DNA of 64,000 nucleotides from NCBI GenBank assembly GCA_000004985.1, contig GG738918.1; one strand, written 5' to 3'. The position numbers and the translations under genes are program-made. Position 1 is the stretch's first letter. Every line of letters begins with the position of its first letter. The DNA is from Naegleria gruberi (Eukaryota). Shown piece by piece: positions 21,731-56,959 of the stretch. The notes beneath the pieces are model-generated. The model was not told where the DNA came from, searched no databases, and worked only from the letters and a program-made list of their open reading frames with translations.

Positions 21731-21885
21731 TTTTTGTACTGTAAATTTATCCAAATTATTACATGTTCTAAAAATCACTATGAGCTTTTGATTTTCTAAT
21801 GGCGGAAATGATCGGGAATGATAGATGCTTAATTGACCACCAAAACCAATCAATATTGTGATTTTTTCTCAATCACAATAAAAAA

Positions 21886-23403
21886 ATGCCAAAAGAGAAG
21901 GGGAGAGGTAATGGTGTGGAGAGTAAAGTTGCATGTTTGGCCTGTCGTCGTGCTCATAAAAAATGTGATAGAAAATTACCTTCATGTGCTAGATGTTCTT
22001 CAAAGGGATGGTCATGTAATTATGATCAAATAGATCGGAGGTTTAAACCAGTTGAGGTAATGAATGAATTGAATAATGATGTTGGAAATTCAAATGTTGA
22101 GTTTAATCATCAGGATGGAATGAATATTGTTGACAATCAGGTGGTGGAGGTGAATGAAAATTGGATTCAACATTCAATGACGGAGGAAACTATTAGAATA
22201 TATAAGGAGGTTATCTATGTGGGAGTTCCTTGCTTCTCAAATGAAGATTATGCCAACATGTTGAGGATGTCTGTGAAGGAAATGAATGAAACTAGGAAGG
22301 ATATTCTTGCATTGCTATTGTCAATTCAGTGCTTGTGTGAGAATATGTGGGGATTTCTCCCAGCTGCTCAGAGAACTGCTGAAAAATCAAGGGATGTACT
22401 AAGGATTGTTTATGAGGATTTTGGAAATCCGTTTGTTGCTTCTTCATTCCTTAATTTGTCATCGTTTTATTCTGTCATTGGAAATGTAGAGATGGCAAAA
22501 GGATACTTGGCAATAATAGAACATTTTTGCTCAAAACTAGAACAGGATTCTACCAGACACGTATTAATAGAAAAGTATAATTGTAAGGTTGATCCAATTT
22601 CTTTCAAAGCTTTTTCAGCATTAGTTGAGATCAACTGTTCTGATTCATACCCTATACCAGATATTGTTTCCCTGAAAAAGTTATATGGTGCCATTTCAGA
22701 TGTTAGCCAGTTAGTTTACAATTTAGATTCTTCACTTGAAAAGAGGATTGAGGGTATGACGTTATTTGTTGCTATGGCAATTAATGAAACATCAGAAAGA
22801 CCTAAATCAGAACTTTCAACCCATATTCTCGATATATGTCTCAAAATATTTGTTAATGGATTGAATATTGTTAGGGCAATTATTAATGGATCCAAATATT
22901 CAGAACCTAGTTTATTGGACGAGAATACCAAAATAATGGAATATTATGCCTATGAAATTACAAAGTTATGTCAAGATCCAGCGTCAGTGGTAGTGCCACC
23001 ATATGTCACTTCTTTTATAGTCACAGCCACAAAGTTAAATTTTGAAATTTTCAAATCTATTGTTAAGGGTGATAGAAAAAATAATCAAAATACGATTATT
23101 ATGAGAGAAGATGGAAGTATTGAACCTTCTATGGAAACAGTTGACTATCATAGTGTTATGATGATTGAATTGAATACTTTGAAACAATTGAGTAAGAGAT
23201 ATCCGTATGTTCACAAAATATTTGAAGAGGTGAATGATTTTATCATGAATAATGGAAAAGAATCAATGATTAGAAATACTAACAACAACAACAACGACAT
23301 TCAACATTTTATTAATCTGCTATATGAAGAACCTTCAGATATTTACAGTGAAATGAAAAAATTTATAGATAATTTGAAAAAGACAACAACCACTAATCTA
23401 TAA
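21886..23403 (+). CDS. Zn(II)2Cys6 (fungal-type binuclear zinc cluster) transcription factor
   Basis: 'ataaaaaaATG'. N-terminal 'CLACRRAHKKCDRKLPSCARCSSKGWSCNY' fits CX2CX6CX6CX2CX6C exactly. 505 codons, no intron needed. Confidence 0.8.
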   Translation: MPKEKGRGNGVESKVACLACRRAHKKCDRKLPSCARCSSKGWSCNYDQIDRRFKPVEVMNELNNDVGNSNVEFNHQDGMNIVDNQVVEVNENWIQHSMTEETIRIYKEVIYVGVPCFSNEDYANMLRMSVKEMNETRKDILALLLSIQCLCENMWGFLPAAQRTAEKSRDVLRIVYEDFGNPFVASSFLNLSSFYSVIGNVEMAKGYLAIIEHFCSKLEQDSTRHVLIEKYNCKVDPISFKAFSALVEINCSDSYPIPDIVSLKKLYGAISDVSQLVYNLDSSLEKRIEGMTLFVAMAINETSERPKSELSTHILDICLKIFVNGLNIVRAIINGSKYSEPSLLDENTKIMEYYAYEITKLCQDPASVVVPPYVTSFIVTATKLNFEIFKSIVKGDRKNNQNTIIMREDGSIEPSMETVDYHSVMMIELNTLKQLSKRYPYVHKIFEEVNDFIMNNGKESMIRNTNNNNNDIQHFINLLYEEPSDIYSEMKKFIDNLKKTTTTNL

Positions 23404-39074: not shown

Positions 39075-41525
39075 TCAATTTCCAGACAGGTTGTTAATGT
39101 GATTCTTATAGATAGAGATTAGTTCTAAAACTTGTCTAACTTCTTGGAAGTTGATAGTGTTGTGAGTAGTTGATGGATTTTCACGATTACTAAATGAGAG
39201 ATTTCTCCAATAATTTGCAACATTAACATCTGCACAATTTTGTTCCTTTCTAAACTTTTTCAAATTATAGAAGAGTCCAACAAGATTCCCTCTAAGGTAT
39301 TTCTTTGCAGTCTCATTGAATTGTTTGATATCTTGTTCAATAGATAAAAGTTGCTCATTGTAAAAAATGTTGATGGATTGGCAGAGTTCTATGTATATAT
39401 TTTTGAATTGTGAAAATGGTTTGGTGAAGAGGGGATTGAGATTGTTCACTAAATGATCTTCATTCACTTGATTAGAGAATTTACTTTGCATGATGGATGA
39501 AACTATTCTTGTATCATTATATTTTGATGAGGTCAACTCGTATGGAGGATTTTCTAGAACATACTTGTCCAGTTTTGAGACTAAATAATTGACATTACAC
39601 AATCTGAGAGAGGGAATATTTGAGTGAAGAGATGACTTCAATATAAAACATTTGTATGGTTGTTTGAAATTGACAAACTCTAGTCCTTCATATTCGAGGG
39701 GTGAGAACTTTTCAAAATCATTCACAAAATCCTGAAGGTCCAAAAATCCTATATCTGAATATGATTTAACAAAGTCGTTCCAATTATATTTTGTAGAAAA
39801 ATCAATCCAATTTTCATATTCCATCATAGATTCTAGATTTCTACTCCCACAATAAATAATTCTATTACTATTTTTCTGATAAATGAAGAAAAAGTTCAAC
39901 ATTTGATCTTCATGGGATGGATACTTCATTCCAATTCTTTCAAACAGATTTTCAAATTCCTGTTCAGTTTGACTCATATCAAAATTCTTGAGAATCCATT
40001 TGGAAATCCAATTGTCCTTTTCATCATCAAAGACAAACCTCCACTCACCAGAATAAAAGAAAAGCGAACACCTTATCCCAACTGGCCTTTCTAGAATTTG
40101 AATTGAGCTCATGTCAATATCTGAAAAATAGTCACTACCAACTTTTTCTAGTATGAAATTATAATCCATAGCATAGAATCTAGGAACACATACAGGAGTG
40201 TAAACTATCTTTCCATTATCATCAATATTATAAGATAGTACTGTTCCATTACATTCCAAGTAGGACCTACATTCTAAGAAAAGTTTACACAATTCTAAGG
40301 AAATATATTCCATATCACAATCTATCTTGAATAGTTGAGAACTATTAGGATTAAGATGCTCCTCTTTGGATCTAATAATTGGTGTCACATTCACTGAAAG
40401 TAATCTCATCAAGCTGTATGGACCGTATTTGTAGTGGTGTGAAAAGTCTAGTTCATAATTATGCTCTACAACCATTATTAATTCACTAAACAGTGGATTA
40501 TCCTTTTCAAAGCCTGAAGAATATGTATTCAGGAAGTTTTGAATACCCAATGAACTATTGCTTTCTGAGTTTTTACATTTGAAAAGGGCATCTTTGATAA
40601 TATTCTTCAGATCATCTTTTAATTGTTCCTTCCATGTCTTATAGAGTGCATCACTAATTTGTTTATACTCATTCCAAGAACTAAATGAATCAGTATGAAA
40701 TACAATGCTGTCATAGAGTTTGTTAGTTTCGGTATAATCATATATAATACCTGAATTAACAAATTGATAAGCATATTTCGAGTATCTAATACCATGAGCT
40801 AGGTTTTTCTTCACCTTCTTTAGAGTACTTTTCCTTTCACTTTCATCCTTGCAAAGTTTGTTCTCCAAAACATTCCAAAATCTAAATGCCTTATTAAAGC
40901 AATGATGAAGCTCGTGAAGGAATGAATTTTTAGTTCTAGAAATTCTCAAAAACCACAAACTCCAATGATGCCTCCATAATTTCATCTTTTCATCCTCAAA
41001 CAGAACAAATGATGAATTTGGTTGCAGAACAGATAGCATGAATATTGGCAATTGTAAATAAACATGGTCCACAAAGAATGAAGTTTCCATAATGTGCACT
41101 TCCATATCGTATTCCTTCTCTTCTAATTTACCCTCCTCATCATCACAATTACACTTAATAGAGCTTTTCAATAAATATTGTAAATTATTAGAATATCTCG
41201 TTTCATAATCAATACAATGAGAGTAAAAATCATCAACAATCATTATTAAATCAAAATCAGAATCGTTTACATTGGTTTTTGAAACTCTTGATCCGAACAC
41301 GTAAATTCCTCTAATCGAATCATCACGATATAAAACCTTGTCCTTCAACAAGCCTTCTTCAGAAATTGTAATAAAATTGCGAATATGATAAATTAATTCA
41401 TCACTTGAGAAGGGAAATTTAAATTGATTTTCATGGAAATGATGTGATTGCCAATATTGACTCGGTCCAGTACTCTCTTTATCATAACGGAAATTATTAA
41501 TGGTGCATTTTGGAAATTGTTGCAT
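39075..41525 (-). CDS. Pol-beta-superfamily nucleotidyltransferase-domain protein with a large C-terminal region containing ligase-like motifs
   Basis: 816-codon ORF with an A-run before the ATG at 41525. NTase signature 'VFGSRVSKTNVNDSDFDLIMIV' (GS-x9-SDxD). The C-terminal half has 'ILERPVGIRCSLFFYSGEWRF', 'RIIYCGSRN' and 'YEGLEFVNFKQPYKCFILKS', which resemble covalent nucleotidyltransferase motifs I, IIIa and IV/V. Confidence 0.6.
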   Translation of the reverse strand: MQQFPKCTINNFRYDKESTGPSQYWQSHHFHENQFKFPFSSDELIYHIRNFITISEEGLLKDKVLYRDDSIRGIYVFGSRVSKTNVNDSDFDLIMIVDDFYSHCIDYETRYSNNLQYLLKSSIKCNCDDEEGKLEEKEYDMEVHIMETSFFVDHVYLQLPIFMLSVLQPNSSFVLFEDEKMKLWRHHWSLWFLRISRTKNSFLHELHHCFNKAFRFWNVLENKLCKDESERKSTLKKVKKNLAHGIRYSKYAYQFVNSGIIYDYTETNKLYDSIVFHTDSFSSWNEYKQISDALYKTWKEQLKDDLKNIIKDALFKCKNSESNSSLGIQNFLNTYSSGFEKDNPLFSELIMVVEHNYELDFSHHYKYGPYSLMRLLSVNVTPIIRSKEEHLNPNSSQLFKIDCDMEYISLELCKLFLECRSYLECNGTVLSYNIDDNGKIVYTPVCVPRFYAMDYNFILEKVGSDYFSDIDMSSIQILERPVGIRCSLFFYSGEWRFVFDDEKDNWISKWILKNFDMSQTEQEFENLFERIGMKYPSHEDQMLNFFFIYQKNSNRIIYCGSRNLESMMEYENWIDFSTKYNWNDFVKSYSDIGFLDLQDFVNDFEKFSPLEYEGLEFVNFKQPYKCFILKSSLHSNIPSLRLCNVNYLVSKLDKYVLENPPYELTSSKYNDTRIVSSIMQSKFSNQVNEDHLVNNLNPLFTKPFSQFKNIYIELCQSINIFYNEQLLSIEQDIKQFNETAKKYLRGNLVGLFYNLKKFRKEQNCADVNVANYWRNLSFSNRENPSTTHNTINFQEVRQVLELISIYKNHINNLSGN

Positions 41526-41829: not shown

Positions 41830-43440
41830 ATGTCCATTAGTATCATTAGAAAAAAAAACGAATCTTATATCATGAACGAAACCTTTCTCTACAACAATAC
41901 AGCCTTCTCTTCATGTCCCAGTTGGTTTCCTTATCACCTCGTCGACCCATCCACTCTATCTAATAACAATACACTCGATATGGAATGTCCTGATACAATT
42001 CTCGTTCCAATAACAAGTGGAATTTTATATGGATCTTATTTAATATTATTTTTAATTTGTTTAATTTTTCTAATTTGGAAGAGGAAGGCATCTACTATCA
42101 AGGCCAGATCGCCCGTCATTTTATCTTTTGGATTAGTTGCAAATTTTACCTTAGTTTCCCTAGCATTAATTCGGTGCATTGTTGGAAAAACTGATTTTCC
42201 ATGTTTTTTATTTTCGATATTTTACTTTATTTTAGGACCGTGTTTTGTGGTGCCGTCAATTATTAGAGGAATTGAACTGATTATTCAATATAAGGTCAAT
42301 TTATTGAGAGCTAAGAGTATTTCTAGATGTAATCTTTCGAATAATTATTCGACACAGGTGCAGGATGTTAAGAGTGATGTTGTGAGTGAGAAGACTGAAA
42401 CTCAATCAGAATGTGGAACTTCATATAAGGAAACTAGATCAGTACGAGTATTGACAACTTTGAATAGAATACTGCAGAGTGCTATATTTCATTTGTGTTT
42501 TACTTTATTCTTGTTGATATTTCATTTGGGCATTTGGTTATGTTCTGGGTTGATTGAAGATGGTTTCTATTCGAAACACAGATTTTTCATGACTAATGCC
42601 AGTATTTTGAGTGTTGGAGGATGTTATTCATCTACTGGAAGTTCGATTGCCATGGCTGTGTTTGTTGGATTATATTTTATCATTGACTTGATAATTAATA
42701 TTATATGTTTGACAATTGACAATGACACATTCAACATCAAGATTGGAAATCTAGGCATGACAGTAGTAAGAATACTATGTGGTATATTTTACCTTGTATT
42801 TTCACAAGTTCCAGTTTTAAGATCTACTGGCAGAATCATTCCTTCTATTTATGTATTTATCCTAAACTGTATTGTTGAACTAATTGTCACAATTCTCATT
42901 CCATCCATTAAAGATTGTATAGATAAGATGAAATACCAATCAAAATACAACCAATCAGAAATTGAATGTGTTTTAAATGACCAAAAACTTTTCAATATTT
43001 TAATTGATTTTTCAAGAAGAAGTTACAGCCCTGAAAGTGTTTTATTTTACAAAGATATTCAACATTACAAACAATTGGTGGCAAAGCTTGAAATGATGGA
43101 AAATGGAGCTTTTCAACATGTTGAGTCAATTAAGAATTTACGTGTGAAAATTACACGTTTCGTTCAGAATATTGTTCATGTTTATTTATGTGAAGGAAGT
43201 GTTAATGAATTGAATATTCCTAATTTGAAAATGAAGAAATTGGAATTGACCAACAAGATTGCTGCATGTATAGAATTTGAATCTAATAGATTTACCAGGG
43301 ATTTATTCGATTCAATCTTGGTAGAATCAATGCTCACTCTGATGGAAGTGTATCATCGATTGAAACAACAAAACCCCACCATACGACAATTCTCCCTACA
43401 TTGGAAAAATGATCAAGACAAGCTCAACAATTCACTGTAA
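41830..43440 (+). CDS. Seven-transmembrane RGS protein (7TM-RGS, AtRGS1-like architecture), paralogue 1
   Basis: The track start is a TTG; the first ATG is at 41830. Cys-containing N-terminal ectodomain 'CPSWFPYHLVDPSTLSNNNTLDMECPDTILVP'. Seven hydrophobic helices. C-terminal RGS-like domain 'LFNILIDFSRRSYSPESVLFYKDIQHYKQL ... YLCEGSVNELNIPN'. Confidence 0.7.
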   Translation: MSISIIRKKNESYIMNETFLYNNTAFSSCPSWFPYHLVDPSTLSNNNTLDMECPDTILVPITSGILYGSYLILFLICLIFLIWKRKASTIKARSPVILSFGLVANFTLVSLALIRCIVGKTDFPCFLFSIFYFILGPCFVVPSIIRGIELIIQYKVNLLRAKSISRCNLSNNYSTQVQDVKSDVVSEKTETQSECGTSYKETRSVRVLTTLNRILQSAIFHLCFTLFLLIFHLGIWLCSGLIEDGFYSKHRFFMTNASILSVGGCYSSTGSSIAMAVFVGLYFIIDLIINIICLTIDNDTFNIKIGNLGMTVVRILCGIFYLVFSQVPVLRSTGRIIPSIYVFILNCIVELIVTILIPSIKDCIDKMKYQSKYNQSEIECVLNDQKLFNILIDFSRRSYSPESVLFYKDIQHYKQLVAKLEMMENGAFQHVESIKNLRVKITRFVQNIVHVYLCEGSVNELNIPNLKMKKLELTNKIAACIEFESNRFTRDLFDSILVESMLTLMEVYHRLKQQNPTIRQFSLHWKNDQDKLNNSL

Positions 43441-43686: not shown

Positions 43687-43826
43687 AAGTCGTGCGATAG
43701 AAAAAGAAATTTTGGAATAGTTAAAGTTGAGGAAGAAGATGATTGTTCTCCACAACACAAAAAGACTAAATTGTGAGGGATATCAAGTTGAATGAAGATA
43801 TCTCATCCAAATAATAATTTAATAAT

Positions 43827-46800
43827 TTATTCTAAAAGTCTTCTTCTTCTATCGATATCATCATCCTCATCATCACTTGTAAAATTGCTAACATCATCCT
43901 CATCTTCCTCTTCATCCTCATCAGCTATTGCTGGTATTGACACTTCCTCAATATCTGCCAATAATTTAGCTTTAGTGAAAACTGTACCAATACCACGTCC
44001 AAAATATTCACAAACCAGAGAATAACCATCCAACTTCTTGGTATTAAGTTGCTTAAAGAAGGATTCGTGTTGTTCACTCGACTCTTCGAATTTTCTCTTT
44101 CTTTGGAGAATATCTCTGTGCTTATCAGAACAAACTCTACATTCACCTTCATTACCAACAAGGAGACATCTTTGATGGTATGAGTGATTACACATGAAAT
44201 GTACAGCAGGCAAGTCCAATTGAGCATTACAGAAAGTACAAGTGGTAGCTTGGAAAGTTTTGGCACTGGTTTGTAAATCGTAAATTTCCTTTCTCATTTG
44301 AGCAGTTTCAGTTTGGAATTCCTTGATCTTTTCTACATCTTCTCTTATCATTTCTTGTTCTTTTTGAATTTTAGAAATCAGATAGTCCTTTACAGAATAG
44401 AGTTTGGTCTTTTCATTCTTACCAAGAATTTGAACAACCAGTAATGGAGGTAAAATTTCATCCTTTTCAATCTTTTCTAATACAATAGCTAATTCTTCTT
44501 CAACATTATCATCCAATGTGGCAAAATATGTGAGAACTTGAACCCACAAATTTGGATCCTTGTCACCATATTGATTAACAGAGGCGATTACATTCTTGTA
44601 ATCACGTTGCTCCATATAATATTGGATAATATAATAGTGAAGACCCAAAGTATCATAAATCTTGAGTACACCTTCTTTAAAGTTTTGTGATTGGACAAGA
44701 ACAAGAACGTGCTCCTTATCATAGTTAGATTGTGGATGGTCGAGTGTATAAAGCAATCTATCTTTAAAGCTCAAATTGGCAATATCTGTGCTTGGTGGCT
44801 GAATTTCATATCTATCAGAAATGCCTTGAGTTTGCTCAAGTTCTGGTCTTTTCTTAGAATCAGTATCCAAATATTTAAGATAAAGTTCAATGAGCGTATT
44901 GTACACAACCTTGGAATGTGATGTATCTGGTCGAAGAGTTCTCCAAATAACATTTTCCAAAAATATCATTAACCAGTATTGATCCTTACTTGGGAAGCAA
45001 TGAATATATGACTCTGGTTTTGGTTTAGCATGTTCAATGTGTTGATTATTATACATATCTTCATATCCGGTAGTTTTAACAATTTGAGATTCAAGATTAG
45101 CAGATGATTGTTTCAAACCTAGAAGTACATTCAGAATACCCCCTTCTTTCTTCTTTTCTGCTTGGTTGCTTGAATCATTGGAGTTTGGTATAATTCTAAG
45201 CTTGTAATTATCAATGATTCTCTTTTGAGTTAACTTGATATCACTATCCAAAACTCTATTTGTTTCAGCAGGGTGAATTGGGAAATATTCTGTACACAAT
45301 CTTATGAGAGCGTTAGTAGTCTCTTTTGGTAAATGTGAAATGAGTGTTTTACCATAGGTTTTCAGATAACTTTCAGCTTCAGGTAAGGCAAGAGATTCAA
45401 TATATTTGAGCGCTCTTCTAAAGTTCTCTTTAGAATCAACCTTCTCGCCATTATCCTTGTCCAAATTATCTGTATCAAAGTCCTCCAAGTGAATCTTAAT
45501 GTACCAATCGTGTTGTTTGTGTTTCATGGCCAAAATGAGGGCATGTTCCTTGTAGCCGGCTTTTCTACAAACTCTAATAGCTGTCTCTACATCGTACATA
45601 AGCTTATCTTGCATACTGATAAACTTGTCGAGTTTTTCCTTTCTTTCATCCTTCAATTTGGTGTAACAGTTTAACAAGAGGGTTGTGTGATCAGAGGTGG
45701 CAAGACGTTTTTCGTGAAGGGTTTCAAGATATTCTGTAAGGTTACGAATTCTGTTTGCATCCAAGAATTTTCTGATAACATAGGATGGTTCCAATCTACC
45801 AATAGTTCTACAAAATTGTTTCATAGCTCCATCATAATCTTTCTTTGAATACAAGTGATCACCATATTGTTTTGAAATTTCAAACAAGTAATTACTGTCA
45901 AGTTGTTCACTATCAACTAAACTGATGGCAATCGAATAAAAGTTCTTTTGTAAAAGCAATTCCAACTTGGATTGGGTATCTTTTTCTTCCAAAAGGAACA
46001 TTTGTTGTTCAGATTTGTTTTCATCAATATTCGACAATAAAAAGACATTACCCCATTCTTGAAGAATATGTGTAATGTGTAATTTGTCACTCGAATATCT
46101 AAAGGCAATATACTTGTTTTTCAAATCATAAATAGTAATAACTTGTTGAGATTTGCTACTGGTTGTGTTAATATCTGAACTAATAACAATTAAATAATTT
46201 CTGAACCAATGTGACAAGATCTTTTTACCTTCAAAAGCAAAACAAGATCCTTTTCCTTCAGGTTTAAAGAACCAAACAGCAGATTTAGAAGAAACCACAA
46301 AATCTCCATCATTACTCAAAGTACTACATCCAACTTCACATCCAATAGTGTCATCTAAAATTACTTTTGATTGTTCAAGTGCTCTTTGTGATGTACTGCT
46401 ATTAGTATTAATAGAATATTTAAAAACTTGAGTAAGTGAACAACAGAATAAAGTATAATCATTAGGTGAATTACCATATCTCTTAAATCCTAATCCTGTT
46501 ATTCTCTCATTTGGAGCACCATCCAATAAAAACACTTTGTGTGATGACTTTCCTCCTTGTTTTGTAAAATCACCTTCAAATATAATAATTTTACCATTTC
46601 CTAAACCAAGTGCAATACAATTAAAATCTTGATTTGCTTCAAAACAACACACCGGATAAGGTTCCATATCTTTGATCTGACTAAATATCTTGATATCTCT
46701 TACTAATTGATATTGACCAAAACTTGTGTGACCTTCCTTTGTGTGTTCTTTATACTTGTCAAGAGAATAAATTTTCAATACATCCTGATAGGCTTCTCCA

Positions 46801-47051
46801 CCATCATCACCAACAACAACTAAACAATTAGATTTAGCAATATGTTTGATGTGATTAACTCTTGCTTCAAAGGCTTTACATTGACGTGTATTTAAATTTT
46901 TATCCATAACATGAAAAGTACCACGATTATCTCCGAATATAATATTACTTCTTCCGCTAGTACAACAAGTTACATTGGTCTGAGAGAAAAATTTTGATGA
47001 TTTCTCATCACTCACTGTATGCTTGTCAAAGAAGTTGAATTTCTTCCACAT
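43827..47051 (-). CDS. VPS11: VPS11, the HOPS/CORVET core subunit (beta-propeller, alpha-solenoid, C-terminal RING-H2)
   Basis: The start at 47051 ('caaaaaaaaATGtgg') gives 'MWKKFNFFDKH', compared with human 'WRRFVFFDKE'. C-terminus 'CTFCNAQLDLPAVHFMCNHSYHQRCL...ECRVCSDKH...VCEYFGRGIGTVF' matches VPS11 '[26 protein letters not shown]...DCPTC...IADYFGRGVFNK'. Acidic tail. Confidence 0.85.
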   Translation of the reverse strand: MWKKFNFFDKHTVSDEKSSKFFSQTNVTCCTSGRSNIIFGDNRGTFHVMDKNLNTRQCKAFEARVNHIKHIAKSNCLVVVGDDGGEAYQDVLKIYSLDKYKEHTKEGHTSFGQYQLVRDIKIFSQIKDMEPYPVCCFEANQDFNCIALGLGNGKIIIFEGDFTKQGGKSSHKVFLLDGAPNERITGLGFKRYGNSPNDYTLFCCSLTQVFKYSINTNSSTSQRALEQSKVILDDTIGCEVGCSTLSNDGDFVVSSKSAVWFFKPEGKGSCFAFEGKKILSHWFRNYLIVISSDINTTSSKSQQVITIYDLKNKYIAFRYSSDKLHITHILQEWGNVFLLSNIDENKSEQQMFLLEEKDTQSKLELLLQKNFYSIAISLVDSEQLDSNYLFEISKQYGDHLYSKKDYDGAMKQFCRTIGRLEPSYVIRKFLDANRIRNLTEYLETLHEKRLATSDHTTLLLNCYTKLKDERKEKLDKFISMQDKLMYDVETAIRVCRKAGYKEHALILAMKHKQHDWYIKIHLEDFDTDNLDKDNGEKVDSKENFRRALKYIESLALPEAESYLKTYGKTLISHLPKETTNALIRLCTEYFPIHPAETNRVLDSDIKLTQKRIIDNYKLRIIPNSNDSSNQAEKKKEGGILNVLLGLKQSSANLESQIVKTTGYEDMYNNQHIEHAKPKPESYIHCFPSKDQYWLMIFLENVIWRTLRPDTSHSKVVYNTLIELYLKYLDTDSKKRPELEQTQGISDRYEIQPPSTDIANLSFKDRLLYTLDHPQSNYDKEHVLVLVQSQNFKEGVLKIYDTLGLHYYIIQYYMEQRDYKNVIASVNQYGDKDPNLWVQVLTYFATLDDNVEEELAIVLEKIEKDEILPPLLVVQILGKNEKTKLYSVKDYLISKIQKEQEMIREDVEKIKEFQTETAQMRKEIYDLQTSAKTFQATTCTFCNAQLDLPAVHFMCNHSYHQRCLLVGNEGECRVCSDKHRDILQRKRKFEESSEQHESFFKQLNTKKLDGYSLVCEYFGRGIGTVFTKAKLLADIEEVSIPAIADEDEEEDEDDVSNFTSDDEDDDIDRRRRLLE

Positions 47052-47205
47052 TTTTTTTTGATGAAAAGATTTTTTAGTTTTTAAAAATTGATGATCCCGA
47101 ATAGAATATGCAATTCTGTCGTTCATGAAACTGTGATGATTAGTAATGGATTAACAAAATGTTTAAAGTCAAGCTATTGAGAATGCAAAGATGACAGTGA
47201 AGGGT

Positions 47206-49741
47206 TTATTTTGCATCTATTTTTCGTTTGGATTTTCGAAGTAAATTGCTAACAATTTTACATGGAGTGATGAGCGATAATCTTTCACAAATGTCATACA
47301 TGGCTCTGTAATTGTTTTGAAACATGTAATCTTGAGCCAGTTCCAAATCTTTAGAAACTTTGATTTGTAAATCAGTTGCATCAGTTCTTGCACTTTCTAA
47401 ACTGTATATTCTTGTTGGTGTTTCTTTTCCCTTTAGTAAAATGTAATCAGCAAAATAGCAAACAAATTCATTCTTCACATGTTGATAGGTATTCTCACTG
47501 ATTAGAATATTGGAACCATAATATCTATTCAAAGATTGAAGCTTGGATCCAATATTAACATCATCTCCAATAGCTGTGAAATTCAATCGATTCTCACTTC
47601 CCATACTGCCATACATCATATTTCCACTGCTGACACTAACGTAAATTGAGAGATCAATATCAATTTGTCTTTCATTCCTCCACATTATATTTAATTCATC
47701 GATAATCTCCAAAGCTTCCATTGCAGCTTTGCAAGCTCTCACTTCATGCTCCTCAACTGGCATTGACGAATCATTCCAAACAGCTTGTAATCTATCTCCA
47801 TTTATCATATCAATTAATCCTCTATGATCTTCCATTGCCTTTGTTAAACTTCCAAAATAATCAGTCATCACAGATACAAATATTGATGTTTCAGTTAACT
47901 CTGCCAATTGAGTAAAATCCTTAATACTAGAAACAAGAATTGTCATATTTTGAAGTGTCAATCCAACATCTAAATAATGTTCGTCACTAATCACTTTTTT
48001 CATTATTGTAGGTGAAACAAATTTAGAAAATGCTGAAACTCCTCTCTTTAGAGAATTAATTCCATTCTCCATCTCTCCAATATCATAGAATATTTGACCA
48101 GCAGTTGTGATTTTGGTATTATCACTTTCGCTCGCAAGACTCTTATCACTCAATATCTTGGAGAGTTTCTTGTGAACATGATTTAAGGGTTGTGTGAAAA
48201 GTTGAACAATTACAAAAAGACACAACGTTCCAGCAACGAGAATAACAATGAATACCACTACAGATGTCATACCACTTGAGAGAATTTCTGCAAATATATC
48301 TGCATCTACTGATCCAATAACCAATGCCAAACTCAATCCATATGGATCAACTACTGGAGTTATCACAACATTCTTTCCACGATATTTCAAACTGATTGGT
48401 ACGTTAGAGGTAATGTTTTTCAGTAACTCCTTATCTTGTATATAATTAGCAATTTCAAAAATTTCACCATCTCCAGTATGGACAGTGAACTTGGTTGTGT
48501 TATATCTACTTGAGGCAATAACATTTCCATTCGTTTCCATGATGAAACTATAGCTAATGAAATTGTAAGATCTTGAAGTAGAATTCAGGAAGGAATTCAA
48601 TCCTTTCAGTGCAAACACCTCAGCAACAGCTCCAAATAAATGATCCTTATGTTTAAAATTCGTTATGCTTATATCAATAGAATCAATGCTCTTTCCTGTC
48701 TTACAAGCTTGTGTGATATTCTCTTTTACATAGATAGGATAAGCAATACTAATGGATGGCTCACCAATAGTTGAAATGTAAAGCTCAGTCCATCTCTGCC
48801 CAGTTGCTAATCCTTCCTTGAAAGGATAGTACCACGGTCTTAAATGTAAATCAAAGGCTACTCTCATTTAATATACTCAATTAGTATTGGGAATACTTAC
48901 TAAAAGGCTCAACAAACAAAAAGAGGTTGTCTTTGAGTGGATTCTCAAATGGATTTTCTGAAATATGGTAATAGTACATCGCAGTTCCTGTTCCATTTAT
49001 CAGTAGAACATATGGTGTAGAAATATCCAGTGTTCCAGCATAATTCCTCAAATAATTTCCGTATTGAATTGTTGTGAGTGGTGATTTGTGAATATAGACT
49101 GATCTGAGATATTTGAGAAAAATTGCCCACTCGGTAATATTTTTCAATGGAAATCCATTCTCTACTTCCATTTTTACCTGTTGGATTATCAGATTTGAAG
49201 TGTTGATGATTTTTCCAATTTCAAATGTTACATAACTTTGAGTTTGTTGAGCTTGAAATCTCGAAACTCGCAAAAGAACACTATTTCCAGACGTGTACAT
49301 TAGTATGAAAGAAGGAATCAATCCAATGAGTCCCTGAATAATGAAGAGAACCAACAGGACATGACTAATTCTCAATCCTCTCGAACAATTATACATTCTT
49401 GGTTTTTTGTTTTCTTGTGTTTCTGGCATGTGACGTAAATGTTCTTCCCCATGACGTGACTCCTCGAATGTGAAAACAGTATTTCTCCTTCCATAGATTG
49501 GATCTGGTTTGGTGGTTGGATGAATAATGGATGAGGTGGTACTGTTACCATGGGAAGGTCTTCTATGCAGAGGGGGTGGTGTGTTTCTTTCGACATGTAT
49601 TGTTCTCTCAAATGGATCTTCATCAACAATTTCGATGGGTGTAGATGTTTTCGACTCCTCAATTGTGATTTCCTCTTGAATTGATGATGAGGGAGGTACC
49701 TTCCTAGAAACCAAAAGATCCTCACTATTGTTTGGAATCAT
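47206..49741 (-). CDS. Receptor-type class III nucleotidyl cyclase homologue: 2 TM, a Cache/CHASE-like ectodomain, and a cytosolic cyclase-homology domain with substituted catalytic residues
   Basis: Exons 48901..49741 and 47206..48860 join in frame through a 40-nt GTAAGT...GAGAG intron (48861..48900; an alternative acceptor lies 3 nt downstream). TM1 'VLLVLFIIQGLIGLIPSFILMY', TM2 'VVVFIVILVAGTLCLFVIVQLF'. Cyclase domain: 'MTILVSSIKDFTQLAE', 'GLIDMINGDRLQAVWN', 'NFTAIGDDVNIGSKLQSL', 'LLKGKETPTRIYSL'. Confidence 0.75.
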
Positions 49742-55363: not shown

Positions 55364-56959
55364 ATGTCTCTACGACTATTCGAAAGCAAAATGATCTACC
55401 ACTCTGTAGATCAATCATCAAATTCTTCATCAAATTCAACAACGATCAATAGCTACAGTGCATGTCCCGATTGGTTTCCTTATCATTTAGCACTGAATTT
55501 AAATTCAAGTAATTCTTTGAATATGGAATGTCCTGATACTATAGTTGTTCCTATATTTGCTGGAGTTGTTTTATTCTGTTTTATTATATTCACTGTAACT
55601 GGTTTAATTTGTTTATTTTGGAAGAGAAATTCTGCCTACATTAGAGCTAGGTCATTCTCTTCATTGCTAATGACCATTTTGTCAAACACGTTGATTTATG
55701 GCATGGTTTCAATGAGATGCTTGATTGGAAAGGATGATTTTCCTTGTTTTTTAATGTCATTGTCGACCTTCCTTATTGGACCTTTATTTTCCATTCCTTC
55801 AATTGTCAGAGGAATTCGATTAATTATATTATACAGGACTACATTGGAAAGAACAAAGACTTTCAATAACACGGACACCTCTTCCATGAATAAGGTTGAG
55901 AATTTTAATTGTGGAGAAACAACAGTTACTAATTGGTCAGACGAAGTGGAAAAGAGAGATTCCAAGCAACTGAAATATCTTAATCTTGCCAATCGATTAT
56001 TACAAAGCCATTTGTTTACAATAGTATTTACAACCTTGATGCTTTTTTTGCATATTCTTATTTGGATGACTATTGGACTGATTGAGGATCAATACTATTC
56101 CTCTAATAGATTCATCACCACAAATAGTAGTATGTTTAATTATAAGGGGTGTTACTCAAGTGGACCTTCTGGAATTATAATCACTTCCTTTGTTGCGTTT
56201 TATCTGGCAATTGATTTGATTGTAATTATTGTCTTATTCTTTACAACAGAAAAAGATACATTTAGAATCAAATCAGAGTTGATCATCCTGTCAGTTTCGA
56301 GATTGTTTCTTGTTGTGATTTATTTCATAGCTACCCAAGTTCAGTTTTTCAAATATCTGGCAAGAATTATTCCAAACAATCACATTTTTCTTTCGTATGC
56401 TTTCGTTGAGATTATTATTTCAATTCTGTGGCCTGTTTTCAGAGAATCAATGCAGAAACGAGGTGAGCATAAAGTGTTGGAAAGTGAAATTGAATCCGTG
56501 CTCAACAACAAGGAAACTTTGAAGGTTTTGTTGGATTTTGCAAGGAGAAGTTTTTGTCCTGAAGGAATTCTATTTTACAAAGATGTGCAACATTACAAAA
56601 AATTGGTAATCAAGTATCAAGATCATGAATTCAATACAGCATTTCATAACACAGAAACAATCAAGAAACATCGATCAAATGTGCAAAAGTTAGTTTCGAA
56701 TATTGTGAAAAGCTACTTGGCTGAAGGAAGTGTCAATGAATTGAATTTGCCAAATGTCAAAATATTGAGGAATGACATTAATGCTAAACTAGCAGAATTG
56801 GAACATAACCATTCACCTTATCCCGTCGATTTATTTGATTCTGCTCAAGTGGAAACATTACTTACAATTCTTGGATTATACGAAAGATTGAAATATTCCA
56901 ACAAGTCAATTCTAGACTATTCTACACATTGGAGATCAAAAACAACTCCTCACATCTGA
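55364..56959 (+). CDS. Seven-transmembrane RGS protein (7TM-RGS), paralogue 2
   Basis: The track start is a TTG; the first ATG is at 55364. It is collinear with the 41830..43440 protein: 'CPDWFPYHLALNLNSSNSLNMECPDTIVVP', seven hydrophobic helices, and an RGS-like 'LKVLLDFARRSFCPEGILFYKDVQHYKKL ... YLAEGSVNELNLPN'. Confidence 0.7.
   Translation: MSLRLFESKMIYHSVDQSSNSSSNSTTINSYSACPDWFPYHLALNLNSSNSLNMECPDTIVVPIFAGVVLFCFIIFTVTGLICLFWKRNSAYIRARSFSSLLMTILSNTLIYGMVSMRCLIGKDDFPCFLMSLSTFLIGPLFSIPSIVRGIRLIILYRTTLERTKTFNNTDTSSMNKVENFNCGETTVTNWSDEVEKRDSKQLKYLNLANRLLQSHLFTIVFTTLMLFLHILIWMTIGLIEDQYYSSNRFITTNSSMFNYKGCYSSGPSGIIITSFVAFYLAIDLIVIIVLFFTTEKDTFRIKSELIILSVSRLFLVVIYFIATQVQFFKYLARIIPNNHIFLSYAFVEIIISILWPVFRESMQKRGEHKVLESEIESVLNNKETLKVLLDFARRSFCPEGILFYKDVQHYKKLVIKYQDHEFNTAFHNTETIKKHRSNVQKLVSNIVKSYLAEGSVNELNLPNVKILRNDINAKLAELEHNHSPYPVDLFDSAQVETLLTILGLYERLKYSNKSILDYSTHWRSKTTPHI

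What the first reader, a model, noticed from the sequence alone, without database searches (positions are those of the whole stretch)
41830..43440. Plant-type 7TM-RGS protein (receptor-like GTPase-accelerating protein)
The protein combines a Cys-containing N-terminal ectodomain, seven predicted TM helices (for example 'ILYGSYLILFLICLIFLIW', 'VILSFGLVANFTLVSLALIRCIV', 'AIFHLCFTLFLLIFHLGIWLCSGLI', 'IIPSIYVFILNCIVELIVTILIPSI') and a C-terminal RGS-like box. In that box 'SPESVLFYKDIQHYKQL' corresponds to 'SxENxxFWxxxxxYK', and 'SVNELNIP' retains the conserved Asn. This is the AtRGS1 architecture, associated with self-activating G-alpha signalling, and it is rare outside plants and a few protists. 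It would imply a receptor-GAP mode of G-protein regulation in this organism.
Basis: partly seen in the sequence, partly recalled or inferred. Interest (0 to 1): 0.55.

Follow-up and report, generated by a model that had tools for sequence, protein, structure and literature searches.

The report
Naegleria seven-helix membrane RGS protein
This Naegleria gruberi gene encodes a receptor-shaped membrane protein with a built-in G-protein off-switch (RGS) domain.

Summary
Window 41830-43440 (+) is one intact 536-codon ORF. It equals the Naegleria gruberi 'predicted protein' P0001, whose public model starts at Met15.

The protein has a 60-residue extracellular N-terminus with Cys residues and glycosylation sequons. 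Seven TM helices follow, then a C-terminal RGS domain:
- Pfam RGS scores 26.1 bits against a cut-off of 23.9.
- The family profile matches RGS10 at E 1.4e-23.
- The AlphaFold2 model has pLDDT 88.5.
- RGS4 Gα-contact residues E87, N128 and R167 are kept as E402, N462 and R510.

The interpretation (AtRGS1-like 7TM-RGS, a receptor-GAP) is supported, but it is not rare or new. Bosch et al. 2022 reported 28 7TM-RGS proteins in N. fowleri whose RGS domains accelerate GTP hydrolysis on Gα subunits, including self-activating ones.

Three things were added here:
- The 7TM core is class C (7tm_3)-like, as published for AtRGS1.
- A second paralog lies at 55364-56956, and its public gene model is truncated.
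- This copy lacks three family-conserved residues on the cytoplasmic face: R149E, E306G and Y361K.

Verdict: a new member of a known kind, low interest.

The parts
41830..43440 (+). Whole single-exon gene: 536 aa 7TM-RGS protein plus stop codon. The public model P0001 starts at Met15, nt 41872.
   Evidence: ORF and translation. 100% identity to the N. gruberi predicted protein. tblastn places P0001 at 41872-43437.
41830..42009 (+). Extracellular N-terminus, aa 1-60. It has four N-x-S/T sequons and two family-conserved Cys (C29, and C53 in the 'CPDT' motif). There is no Venus-flytrap or other known domain.
   Evidence: C29 is conserved in 39/43 and C53 in 39/48 aligned family members; sequon counts. 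No Pfam domain. pLDDT is below 50 for aa 1-20.
42010..42078 (+). TM1 (aa 61-83), followed by the basic 'WKRKASTIKARS' ICL1.
   Evidence: Hydropathy, AF2 helix 58-83, K+R = 5 in ICL1.
42112..42180 (+). TM2 (aa 95-117).
42205..42273 (+). TM3 (aa 126-148). It is preceded by the near-invariant Pro124-Cys125, the partner of Cys265 in the canonical GPCR TM3-ECL2 disulfide.
   Evidence: P124 in 66/69 and C125 in 67/68 family members. AF2 helix 125-177.
42274..42477 (+). Long ICL2 (aa 149-216). It forms helical extensions of TM3 and TM4 with a low-confidence Ser/Thr-rich tip. Its position matches the T4-lysozyme insertion site in the mGlu5 crystal constructs.
   Evidence: AF2 pLDDT 52-66 for aa 170-200. 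HMM alignment to the mGlu5-T4L chimera.
42478..42546 (+). TM4 (aa 217-239).
42547..42636 (+). ECL2 (aa 240-269) with the invariant Cys265.
   Evidence: C265 is invariant in 81/81 family members.
42637..42705 (+). TM5 (aa 270-292), followed by the family motif 'D-T-[WF]-x-I-K'.
42742..42810 (+). TM6 (aa 305-327). Position 306 is Gly here, but Glu in 73/79 relatives. In the HMM alignment that Glu aligns with the Glu of mGlu5 'NFNEAK', which I identify from memory as the class C ionic-lock E6.35.
42841..42909 (+). TM7 (aa 338-360), ending in the near-invariant Pro358. The family 'PxxY' motif resembles the class C 'PKxY' motif; in this copy the Tyr is replaced by Lys361.
   Evidence: P358 in 74/76; Y361 in 35/76, K here. 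Alignment to mGlu5.
42958..43434 (+). RGS domain (aa 377-535). It carries E402, S403, N462, E506 and R510 at the positions of RGS4 E87, N88, N128, D163 and R167. A roughly 25-residue insertion (about aa 417-443) is shared with the window paralog.
55364..56959 (+). Closest paralog, same strand, about 12 kb downstream: an intact 531-aa 7TM-RGS ORF, 41% identical over 504 aa. It belongs to the same family but is not part of the flagged gene.

Best explanation
The gene encodes a plasma-membrane, receptor-like GTPase-accelerating protein of the Naegleria 7TM-RGS family.

Structure. A class C-GPCR-like seven-helix bundle has a short, glycosylated, Cys-containing N-terminus outside the cell. The bundle holds a canonical RGS box against the inner face of the membrane.

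Mechanism. The RGS box binds the switch regions of GTP-bound G-alpha subunits and speeds GTP hydrolysis, which keeps local G-protein signalling off. An extracellular or membrane cue acting on the 7TM bundle presumably changes the RGS box's access to G-alpha, through conformation, clustering or internalisation. That would release signalling, as in Arabidopsis AtRGS1.

Shown here: the ORF, the topology, the RGS fold and its contact residues, the class C-like 7TM, and family membership.

Inferred from the sister species: GAP activity.

Inferred by analogy only: regulation by a cue, and that the protein sits in the plasma membrane.
For: - Intact ORF identical to an N. gruberi protein.
- Seven TM helices with an N-out, C-in charge bias.
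- RGS by Pfam above the curated cut-off, and by family profile against RGS10 at E 1.4e-23.
- Confident AF2 model, pLDDT 88.5, pTM 0.80.
- Contact residues are kept and near-invariant in the family: E402 in 74/74, N462 in 71/74, R510 in 70/74.
- E402 aligns with AtRGS1 E320.
- The family is large: 149 representative clusters in Naegleria, Willaertia, Acrasis, Basidiobolus and uncultured eukaryotes. 72 of 81 aligned members hit Pfam RGS.
- In N. fowleri, RGS boxes of 7TM-RGS proteins are selective GAPs for Nf G-alpha 2, 3, 5 and 7. They bind the transition-state form, and Nf G-alpha 5 and 7 are self-activating (PMC9283941).
Against: - No experiment exists on this protein or on any N. gruberi member.
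- The protein's own Pfam RGS score is only just above threshold and covers profile positions 4-90 of 117. A single-sequence search of PDB with the RGS region finds nothing.
- RGS4 N88 is Ser and D163 is Glu.
- An insertion of about 25 residues sits inside the RGS box.
- This copy lacks three family-conserved cytoplasmic-face residues: R149E, E306G and Y361K. The 7TM part may therefore not switch conformation in the usual way.
- The protein ends right after the last RGS helix. It therefore has no counterpart of the AtRGS1 phosphorylated C-tail that drives endocytosis.
- The four N. fowleri proteins tested have large EGF/lectin/GPS ectodomains, unlike this one.
Confidence: 0.8

Rival explanations
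1. It is a bifunctional receptor. The class C-like 7TM bundle acts as a true GPCR (an exchange factor) on slow-exchanging Naegleria G-alpha subunits. The fused RGS box supplies fast, local turn-off. This would be a fused version of the animal class C orphan GPR158 with its bound RGS7.
For: The 7TM bundle is homologous to class C GPCRs. GPR158 in complex with RGS7-Gbeta5 is among the best structural matches. Naegleria has slow-exchanging G-alpha subunits that also engage 7TM-RGS proteins, and very few recognisable conventional GPCRs.
Against: No 7TM-RGS protein has been shown to have exchange-factor activity in the papers read here. This copy lacks the family's conserved TM6 Glu and the TM7 Tyr on the G-protein-facing side.
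Confidence: 0.12
2. It is a degenerate or scaffold family member. The RGS box binds G-alpha or another partner without GAP activity, like the GRK or axin RGS-homology domains. Alternatively, the 7TM part is a passive membrane anchor that senses nothing.
For: The Pfam score is marginal. N88 is Ser, D163 is Glu, and there is an insertion in the RGS box. R149, E306 and Y361 are lost from the 7TM cytoplasmic face. The closest relatives are only 36-41% identical, so the gene evolves fast.
Against: The three residues most diagnostic of a working RGS/G-alpha interface are kept (E402, N462, R510). Plant RGS1, a characterised GAP, also has Ser or Thr at the N88 position. The insertion is shared with the paralog, which scores 37.5 bits on Pfam RGS. 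The ORF is intact and folds with high confidence.
Confidence: 0.07
3. It is not a real gene: a chance ORF or a pseudogene.
For: No expression data were available here.
Against: The 1.6-kb ORF lies in a genome of about 31% G+C. It scores 414 bits against the family HMM over its full length. The AF2 model is confident, and NCBI annotates the gene.
Confidence: 0.01

Closest known systems
Naegleria fowleri 7TM RGS proteins (28 genes; Nf 7TM RGS1-4 studied; Bosch, Jeck and Siderovski, J Biol Chem 2022, PMC9283941)
   Same: Same genus and same architecture: 7TM followed by a C-terminal RGS. Both belong to a large lineage-specific expansion. The N. fowleri RGS boxes are canonical GAPs, sensitive to the switch-1 Gly-to-Ser mutation. 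The closest hits of this protein are paralogs in N. gruberi, N. lovaniensis and Willaertia.
   Different: The four proteins studied have large ectodomains with EGF repeats, lectin domains and GPS motifs, whereas this one has only about 60 residues. No orthology to a named Nf protein was established here. That paper does not mention the class C affinity of the 7TM core.
Arabidopsis thaliana AtRGS1 and plant RGS1 orthologs
   Same: - 7TM plus RGS, with a short N-terminus that contains Cys.
- Profile-profile match of 98.1% from ECL2 to the end of the RGS box.
- The catalytic Glu matches (E320 = E402), and the 'ESVxFY' motif has Ser or Thr at the RGS4 N88 position.
- The 7TM is weakly 7tm_3-like: Carya RGS1 scores 27.6 bits over the full length.
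- The 7TM is structurally closest to mGlu1 4OR2, which is also the best Foldseek hit for this protein.
   Different: - The 7TM regions alone are not significantly similar (hhalign E 0.079; HMM best E 0.007 among 120 sequences).
- This protein has a 68-residue ICL2.
- It has no phosphorylatable C-terminal tail.
- Plants have one gene or a few; Naegleria has dozens.
Class C GPCR seven-transmembrane domain (Pfam 7tm_3, PF00003: mGlu, GABA-B, GPR156/158, TAS1R)
   Same: - The TM-only family profile hits the mGlu5 7TM at E 1.4e-4 across all seven helices.
- Relatives P0112 and P0117 pass the 7tm_3 curated cut-off (44.0 and 41.1 bits against 33.5) and also carry RGS. They match this protein's TM region at BLASTP E 1e-5 and 1e-6.
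- The TM3-ECL2 Cys pair, the TM6 Glu and the TM7 PxxY motif are shared at family level.
   Different: - There is no Venus-flytrap or Cys-rich ectodomain.
- The protein itself gives no 7tm_3 hit even at E 10.
- It lacks the TM6 Glu and the TM7 Tyr.
- It carries an RGS domain in cis.
GPR158-RGS7-Gbeta5 complex (PDB 7EWP, 7SHF)
   Different: The RGS is a separate polypeptide recruited in trans, and the complex is specific to animals. The resemblance is functional; common descent of the pairing is untested.
Fungal class VI / GprK-like 7TM-RGS receptors, and 7TM-RGS proteins of early-diverging fungi
   Same: 7TM plus RGS architecture. Basidiobolus meristosporus proteins of 428 aa are significant hits over aa 74-420, that is TM1 through to the start of the RGS box.
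   Different: Identity is about 22%. The relationship to Aspergillus GprK itself was not tested.

Membership tests
RGS domain (Pfam PF00615) | Score at or above Pfam's curated gathering threshold | tested here: met
   26.1 bits against 23.9, aa 380-494. The family profile matches RGS10 at E 1.4e-23. 72 of 81 relatives hit RGS.
RGS domain (Pfam PF00615) | All-helical RGS fold | tested here: met
   [not shown]
RGS domain (Pfam PF00615) | G-alpha switch-contact residues (RGS4 E87, N88, N128, D163, R167) | tested here: inconclusive
   E402, N462 and R510 are kept. N88 is Ser403 and D163 is Glu506. RGS4 numbering was checked against 1AGR. Plant RGS1, a characterised GAP, also has Ser or Thr at the N88 position.
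RGS domain (Pfam PF00615) | GTPase-accelerating activity on a G-alpha subunit | not testable with these tools
   Shown only for N. fowleri relatives (PMC9283941).
7TM-RGS receptor-GAPs (AtRGS1 / Naegleria 7TM RGS type) | Seven TM helices, N-terminus outside, C-terminus inside | tested here: met
   Hydropathy, AF2, positive-inside rule and sequon distribution.
7TM-RGS receptor-GAPs (AtRGS1 / Naegleria 7TM RGS type) | RGS box directly C-terminal to TM7 on the same polypeptide | tested here: met
   TM7 ends near aa 360-373 and the RGS helices start at aa 377.
7TM-RGS receptor-GAPs (AtRGS1 / Naegleria 7TM RGS type) | Sequence homology of the 7TM region to the AtRGS1 7TM region | tested here: inconclusive
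   The full-length profile-profile match of 98.1% runs from ECL2 through TM5-7 and the RGS box, but is driven by the RGS part. TM-only comparison gives E 0.079. The best HMM hit is E 0.007 among 120 sequences, in collinear register over TM4-7. Both 7TM regions link independently to 7tm_3.
7TM-RGS receptor-GAPs (AtRGS1 / Naegleria 7TM RGS type) | Phosphorylated C-terminal tail after the RGS box that triggers endocytosis (AtRGS1-specific) | tested here: not met
   The last RGS helix spans aa 516-535 of 536, so no tail exists. The AtRGS1 tail is A421-G459.
7TM-RGS receptor-GAPs (AtRGS1 / Naegleria 7TM RGS type) | Partner G-alpha is self-activating | not tested
   No G-alpha gene was found among the 19 largest other ORFs of the window scanned with Pfam. 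N. gruberi is reported to have about 44 G-alpha subunits, and N. fowleri G-alpha 5 and 7 self-activate.
Class C GPCR 7TM (Pfam 7tm_3, PF00003) | Pfam 7tm_3 hit on the protein itself | tested here: not met
   No hit even at E 10.
Class C GPCR 7TM (Pfam 7tm_3, PF00003) | Homology to 7tm_3 through relatives, profile and fold | tested here: met
   [not shown]
Class C GPCR 7TM (Pfam 7tm_3, PF00003) | Large extracellular ligand-binding domain (Venus flytrap, with or without a Cys-rich domain) | tested here: not met
   Only about 60 residues precede TM1, with no Pfam domain. Some class C members (GPRC5D, GPR156) also lack one (my own knowledge).

The most novel reading that the evidence does not exclude
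The 7TM-RGS proteins of Heterolobosea, land plants and early-diverging fungi may be one ancient clade whose membrane part is a class C-type (7tm_3) receptor. On that reading, the ancestral eukaryotic 'receptor-GAP' proposed by Bradford et al. was a class C-like receptor fused to RGS, and the animal GPR158/RGS7 pairing is a split descendant or a re-invention of it. Within that frame, this copy is a natural variant whose 7TM bundle no longer uses the conserved cytoplasmic lock, because it has lost the conserved TM3 Arg (R149E), TM6 Glu (E306G) and TM7 Tyr (Y361K).
Probability: 0.25. Interest if true: 0.45.

Novelty: new member of a known kind. Interest (0 to 1): 0.2.

Why it matters
The gene adds one uncharacterised N. 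gruberi member, plus a neighbouring paralog whose public model is truncated, to a receptor-GAP family that is already documented and assayed in N. fowleri. It does not change the picture of G-protein regulation in this organism.

There are two modest points of value:
- The 7TM core of the Naegleria family can be tied to class C GPCRs by sequence, profile and fold. This is the same affinity recently noted for AtRGS1, and it makes the common origin of plant and protist 7TM-RGS proteins testable by phylogeny.
- Gene catalogues that rely on the public N. gruberi models will under-count 7TM-RGS proteins.

Tried and rejected
- The word-indexed homolog search with the protein returned only itself. 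The same search with the TM-only profile returned only itself and one known relative. The exhaustive HMMER search was needed to find the family.
- A single-sequence search of PDB with the RGS region found nothing meaningful. Only the family profile did.
- The AlphaFold-database fold library was unavailable, so AtRGS1 could not be retrieved as a structural neighbour. The database sequences it retrieved were used for all comparisons. They include an A. thaliana fragment 100% identical to the bait over 66% of its length, and a Camelina representative at 93%.
It was then checked against PDB 1AGR, with full-length alignment and the same numbering.
- hhalign of the TM-only alignment A3 against P0112 is circular, because the P0112 TM region is a row of A3. 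It is not used as evidence. Pairwise BLASTP of the query TM region against P0112 and P0117 replaces it.
- Bradford et al. 2013 and Anantharaman et al. 2011 are not held in the library. What I say of them rests on citing papers or on my own memory.
- I looked for a functional link to the flanking genes: VPS11, a Pol-beta-type nucleotidyltransferase-like ORF and a membrane cyclase. I rejected it, because this is a eukaryotic genome with no operon logic, and cyclases number about 80 in Naegleria.
- I looked for a G-alpha gene in the window and found none among the 19 largest other ORFs scanned.
Full report
**What is there**

Window 41830-43440 (+) is a single uninterrupted ORF of 536 codons plus a stop. 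The window has about 31% G+C and long intron-poor ORFs. The protein is 100% identical to a 'predicted protein' of Naegleria gruberi, whose public model starts at Met15 (P0001, 522 aa).

**Topology**

A Kyte-Doolittle scan gives seven hydrophobic peaks. An AlphaFold2 model built on an alignment of 81 relatives is confident (mean pLDDT 88.5, pTM 0.80). It shows seven long membrane helices, at 58-83, 95-118, 125-177, 199-246, 269-293, 303-326 and 340-373, followed by a helical C-terminal domain at 377-535.

Basic residues cluster on the predicted cytoplasmic segments (K+R 5, 10, 1 and 25, against 3, 1, 2 and 2 outside). Four of the ten N-x-S/T sequons lie in the 60-residue N-terminus and one in ECL2. 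The protein is therefore N-out, C-in, with the C-terminal domain in the cytosol.

Cys125 (with Pro124) at the top of TM3 and Cys265 in ECL2 are near-invariant and invariant in the family. This is the canonical GPCR disulfide pair.

**The RGS box**

- The protein alone passes Pfam's curated threshold for PF00615 (26.1 against 23.9 bits, aa 380-494).
- A single-sequence search of PDB finds nothing, so the domain is divergent.
- The profile of 81 relatives hits human RGS10, RGS18, RGS12, RGS14, RGS16 and RGS4 at E 1e-23 to 1e-17.
- 72 of the 81 relatives hit Pfam RGS individually.

In an alignment with RGS4 and plant RGS1, the Gα-contact residues map as follows. RGS4 numbering was verified against PDB 1AGR.

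| RGS4 residue | This protein | Family conservation |
|---|---|---|
| E87 | E402 | 74/74 |
| N128 | N462 | 71/74 |
| R167 | R510 | 70/74 |
| N88 | S403 | Ser 26/74, Asn 20/74 |
| D163 | E506 | Asp 60/73, Glu 8/73 |

E402 aligns with the invariant E320 of plant RGS1. From my own knowledge, this is the residue whose E320K change abolishes AtRGS1 GAP activity. Plant RGS1 also has Ser or Thr at the N88 position, so that substitution does not argue against activity. The conserved Asn is therefore the second Asn of 'SVNELNIP'.

An insertion of about 25 residues (about aa 417-443) sits inside the RGS box. It is shared with the closest paralog.

**The family**

An exhaustive HMMER search of 1.84 billion representatives gives 149 clusters at E ≤ 1e-3.

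- The best hits are paralogs at only 30-36% identity in N. gruberi, N. lovaniensis and Willaertia magna.
- Weaker hits come from Acrasis kona, uncultured eukaryotes and the early-diverging fungus Basidiobolus meristosporus. The Basidiobolus match covers aa 74-420, that is TM1 through to the start of the RGS box.
- Scanning the window with the family HMM finds a second full-length member at 55364-56956 (+). It is 531 aa, 41% identical over 504 aa, and shares the N-terminal 'CPxWFPYHL...MECPDTI' motif and the RGS insertion.

**What kind of 7TM it is**

The protein itself gives no Pfam 7TM hit. Four lines of evidence tie the bundle to class C GPCRs:

1. Six of the 81 relatives hit Pfam 7tm_3. Two of them, P0112 and P0117, exceed its curated cut-off over the whole bundle (44.0 and 41.1 bits against 33.5) and also carry RGS.
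2. The query's TM region alone matches these two proteins by BLASTP at E 1e-5 (collinear over TM1-TM7) and 1e-6.
3. A TM-only profile of 28 relatives hits the mGlu5 7TM crystal construct at E 1.4e-4 across all seven helices. The family's long ICL2 falls where T4 lysozyme was inserted. The full profile also touches TM1-3 of GABA-B2.

At family level, a near-invariant Glu at the cytoplasmic start of TM6 aligns with the Glu of mGlu5 'NFNEAK'. I identify that residue from memory as the class C ionic-lock E6.35. A TM7 'PxxY' motif aligns with the class C 'PKxY' motif.

**Relation to plant RGS1**

Genuine plant RGS1 sequences were retrieved with a remembered AtRGS1 sequence used only as bait. Profile-profile comparison with the Naegleria family gives 98.1% probability, E 1.1e-13. 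The alignment is collinear from the ECL2 Cys through TM5-7 and the RGS box.

The TM regions alone are not significantly similar: hhalign gives E 0.079, and the best HMM hit is E 0.007 among 120 sequences, although in a consistent TM4-7 register.

Plant RGS1 proteins themselves show sub-threshold but full-length 7tm_3 matches. Carya RGS1 scores 27.6 bits, E 2.8e-6, and several carry precomputed PF00003. Lou et al. 2024 reported that the AtRGS1 AlphaFold 7TM is most similar to mGlu1 4OR2 (PMC11580166), which is also the best Foldseek hit here.

'Plant-type' is therefore right for architecture, for the RGS box and for class C affinity. Direct homology of the 7TM to the plant 7TM remains unproven.

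**What is already known**

- de Mendoza et al. 2014 state that many bikonts, and also chytrids, filastereans and ichthyosporeans, have 7TM-RGS proteins (PMC3971589). Fungi have a GprK-like class.
- Bosch, Jeck and Siderovski 2022 (PMC9283941) report 28 7TM-RGS proteins in N. fowleri.
- They show that their RGS boxes are selective GAPs for Nf Gα2, 3, 5 and 7, bind the transition-state form, and are blocked by the switch-1 Gly-to-Ser mutation.
- They also show that Nf Gα5 and Gα7 are self-activating.
- N. gruberi is credited with about 44 Gα subunits.

The 'receptor-GAP mode in this organism' is thus published for the genus. The architecture is neither rare nor new.

**Most likely mechanism**

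The protein is a membrane-anchored GAP. The RGS box, held at the inner face by a class C-like bundle, deactivates GTP-bound Gα. A cue acting on the bundle probably relieves this.

- Shown here: architecture, fold, contact residues, family.
- Inferred from N. fowleri: GAP activity.
- Inferred by analogy with AtRGS1: cue-dependent relief.

Two points caution against simple transfer of the plant mechanism. First, the protein ends one residue after the last RGS helix, so it has no counterpart of the phosphorylated AtRGS1 tail. The Ser/Thr-rich 68-residue ICL2 is the only obvious regulatory loop. Second, this copy has lost three family-conserved cytoplasmic-face residues: R149E (family Arg 56/71), E306G (family Glu 73/79) and Y361K (family Tyr 35/76). 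The window paralog keeps the first two.

The rivals are a bifunctional GPCR-plus-RGS, a GAP-dead scaffold or passive anchor, and a non-gene. They are listed with their tests.

**Verdict**

This is a new, uncharacterised member of a known and already assayed family, of low interest.

The most novel reading not excluded is that plant, heterolobosean and fungal 7TM-RGS proteins form one ancient class C-derived receptor-GAP clade. That needs a dedicated 7TM phylogeny.

Noticed in passing
window 55364-56959 (+): A second intact 7TM-RGS ORF (531 aa, 41% identical to the flagged protein) lies about 12 kb downstream on the same strand. The public N. gruberi model for it (EFC37411.1 / NAEGRDRAFT_53698, 169 aa) is exactly its last 169 residues, which is the RGS box only. 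The public annotation therefore appears to miss the whole 7TM part.
   Followed up: yes
window 42274-42276 (aa 149), 42745-42747 (aa 306), 42910-42912 (aa 361): The flagged protein departs from conserved family residues on the cytoplasmic face of the bundle. R149 is Glu (family Arg 56/71). E306 is Gly (family Glu 73/79; it aligns with the mGlu5 TM6 Glu that I take to be the class C ionic-lock residue). Y361 is Lys (family Tyr 35/76, in the PxxY motif). R149 and E306 could be a salt-bridge pair lost together; this was not tested.
   Followed up: partly
window about 43078-43158 (aa ~417-443): An insertion of about 25 residues lies inside the RGS box, relative to most family members, plant RGS1 and RGS4. 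It is shared with the window paralog and, in a different form, with N. lovaniensis P0003.
   Followed up: partly
window 47209-48867 (-): An ORF of 553 aa has an adenylate/guanylate cyclase catalytic domain (E 4.4e-12) and a weak Cache-like N-terminal match. It lies between the two 7TM-RGS genes. This is probably coincidence, given the very large cyclase family in Naegleria.
   Followed up: no
window 39075-41525 (-): The upstream neighbour is an 816-aa ORF. Its only hit is a short Pol-beta-type nucleotidyltransferase match near the N-terminus (29.3 bits); the rest is unassigned.
   Followed up: no
window 21862-23400 (+): An ORF of 513 aa has an N-terminal Zn(2)-Cys(6) binuclear cluster domain (E 4.6e-9), a DNA-binding domain usually regarded as fungal.
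   Followed up: no
window 43827-47126 (-): The downstream neighbour is a clear VPS11/PEP5 homolog (1099 aa; N-terminal propeller, clathrin-type repeats, C-terminal zinc finger). It has an acidic, Ser-rich C-terminus. The opposite strand carries a spurious poly-Ser ORF (43792-44025).
   Followed up: no
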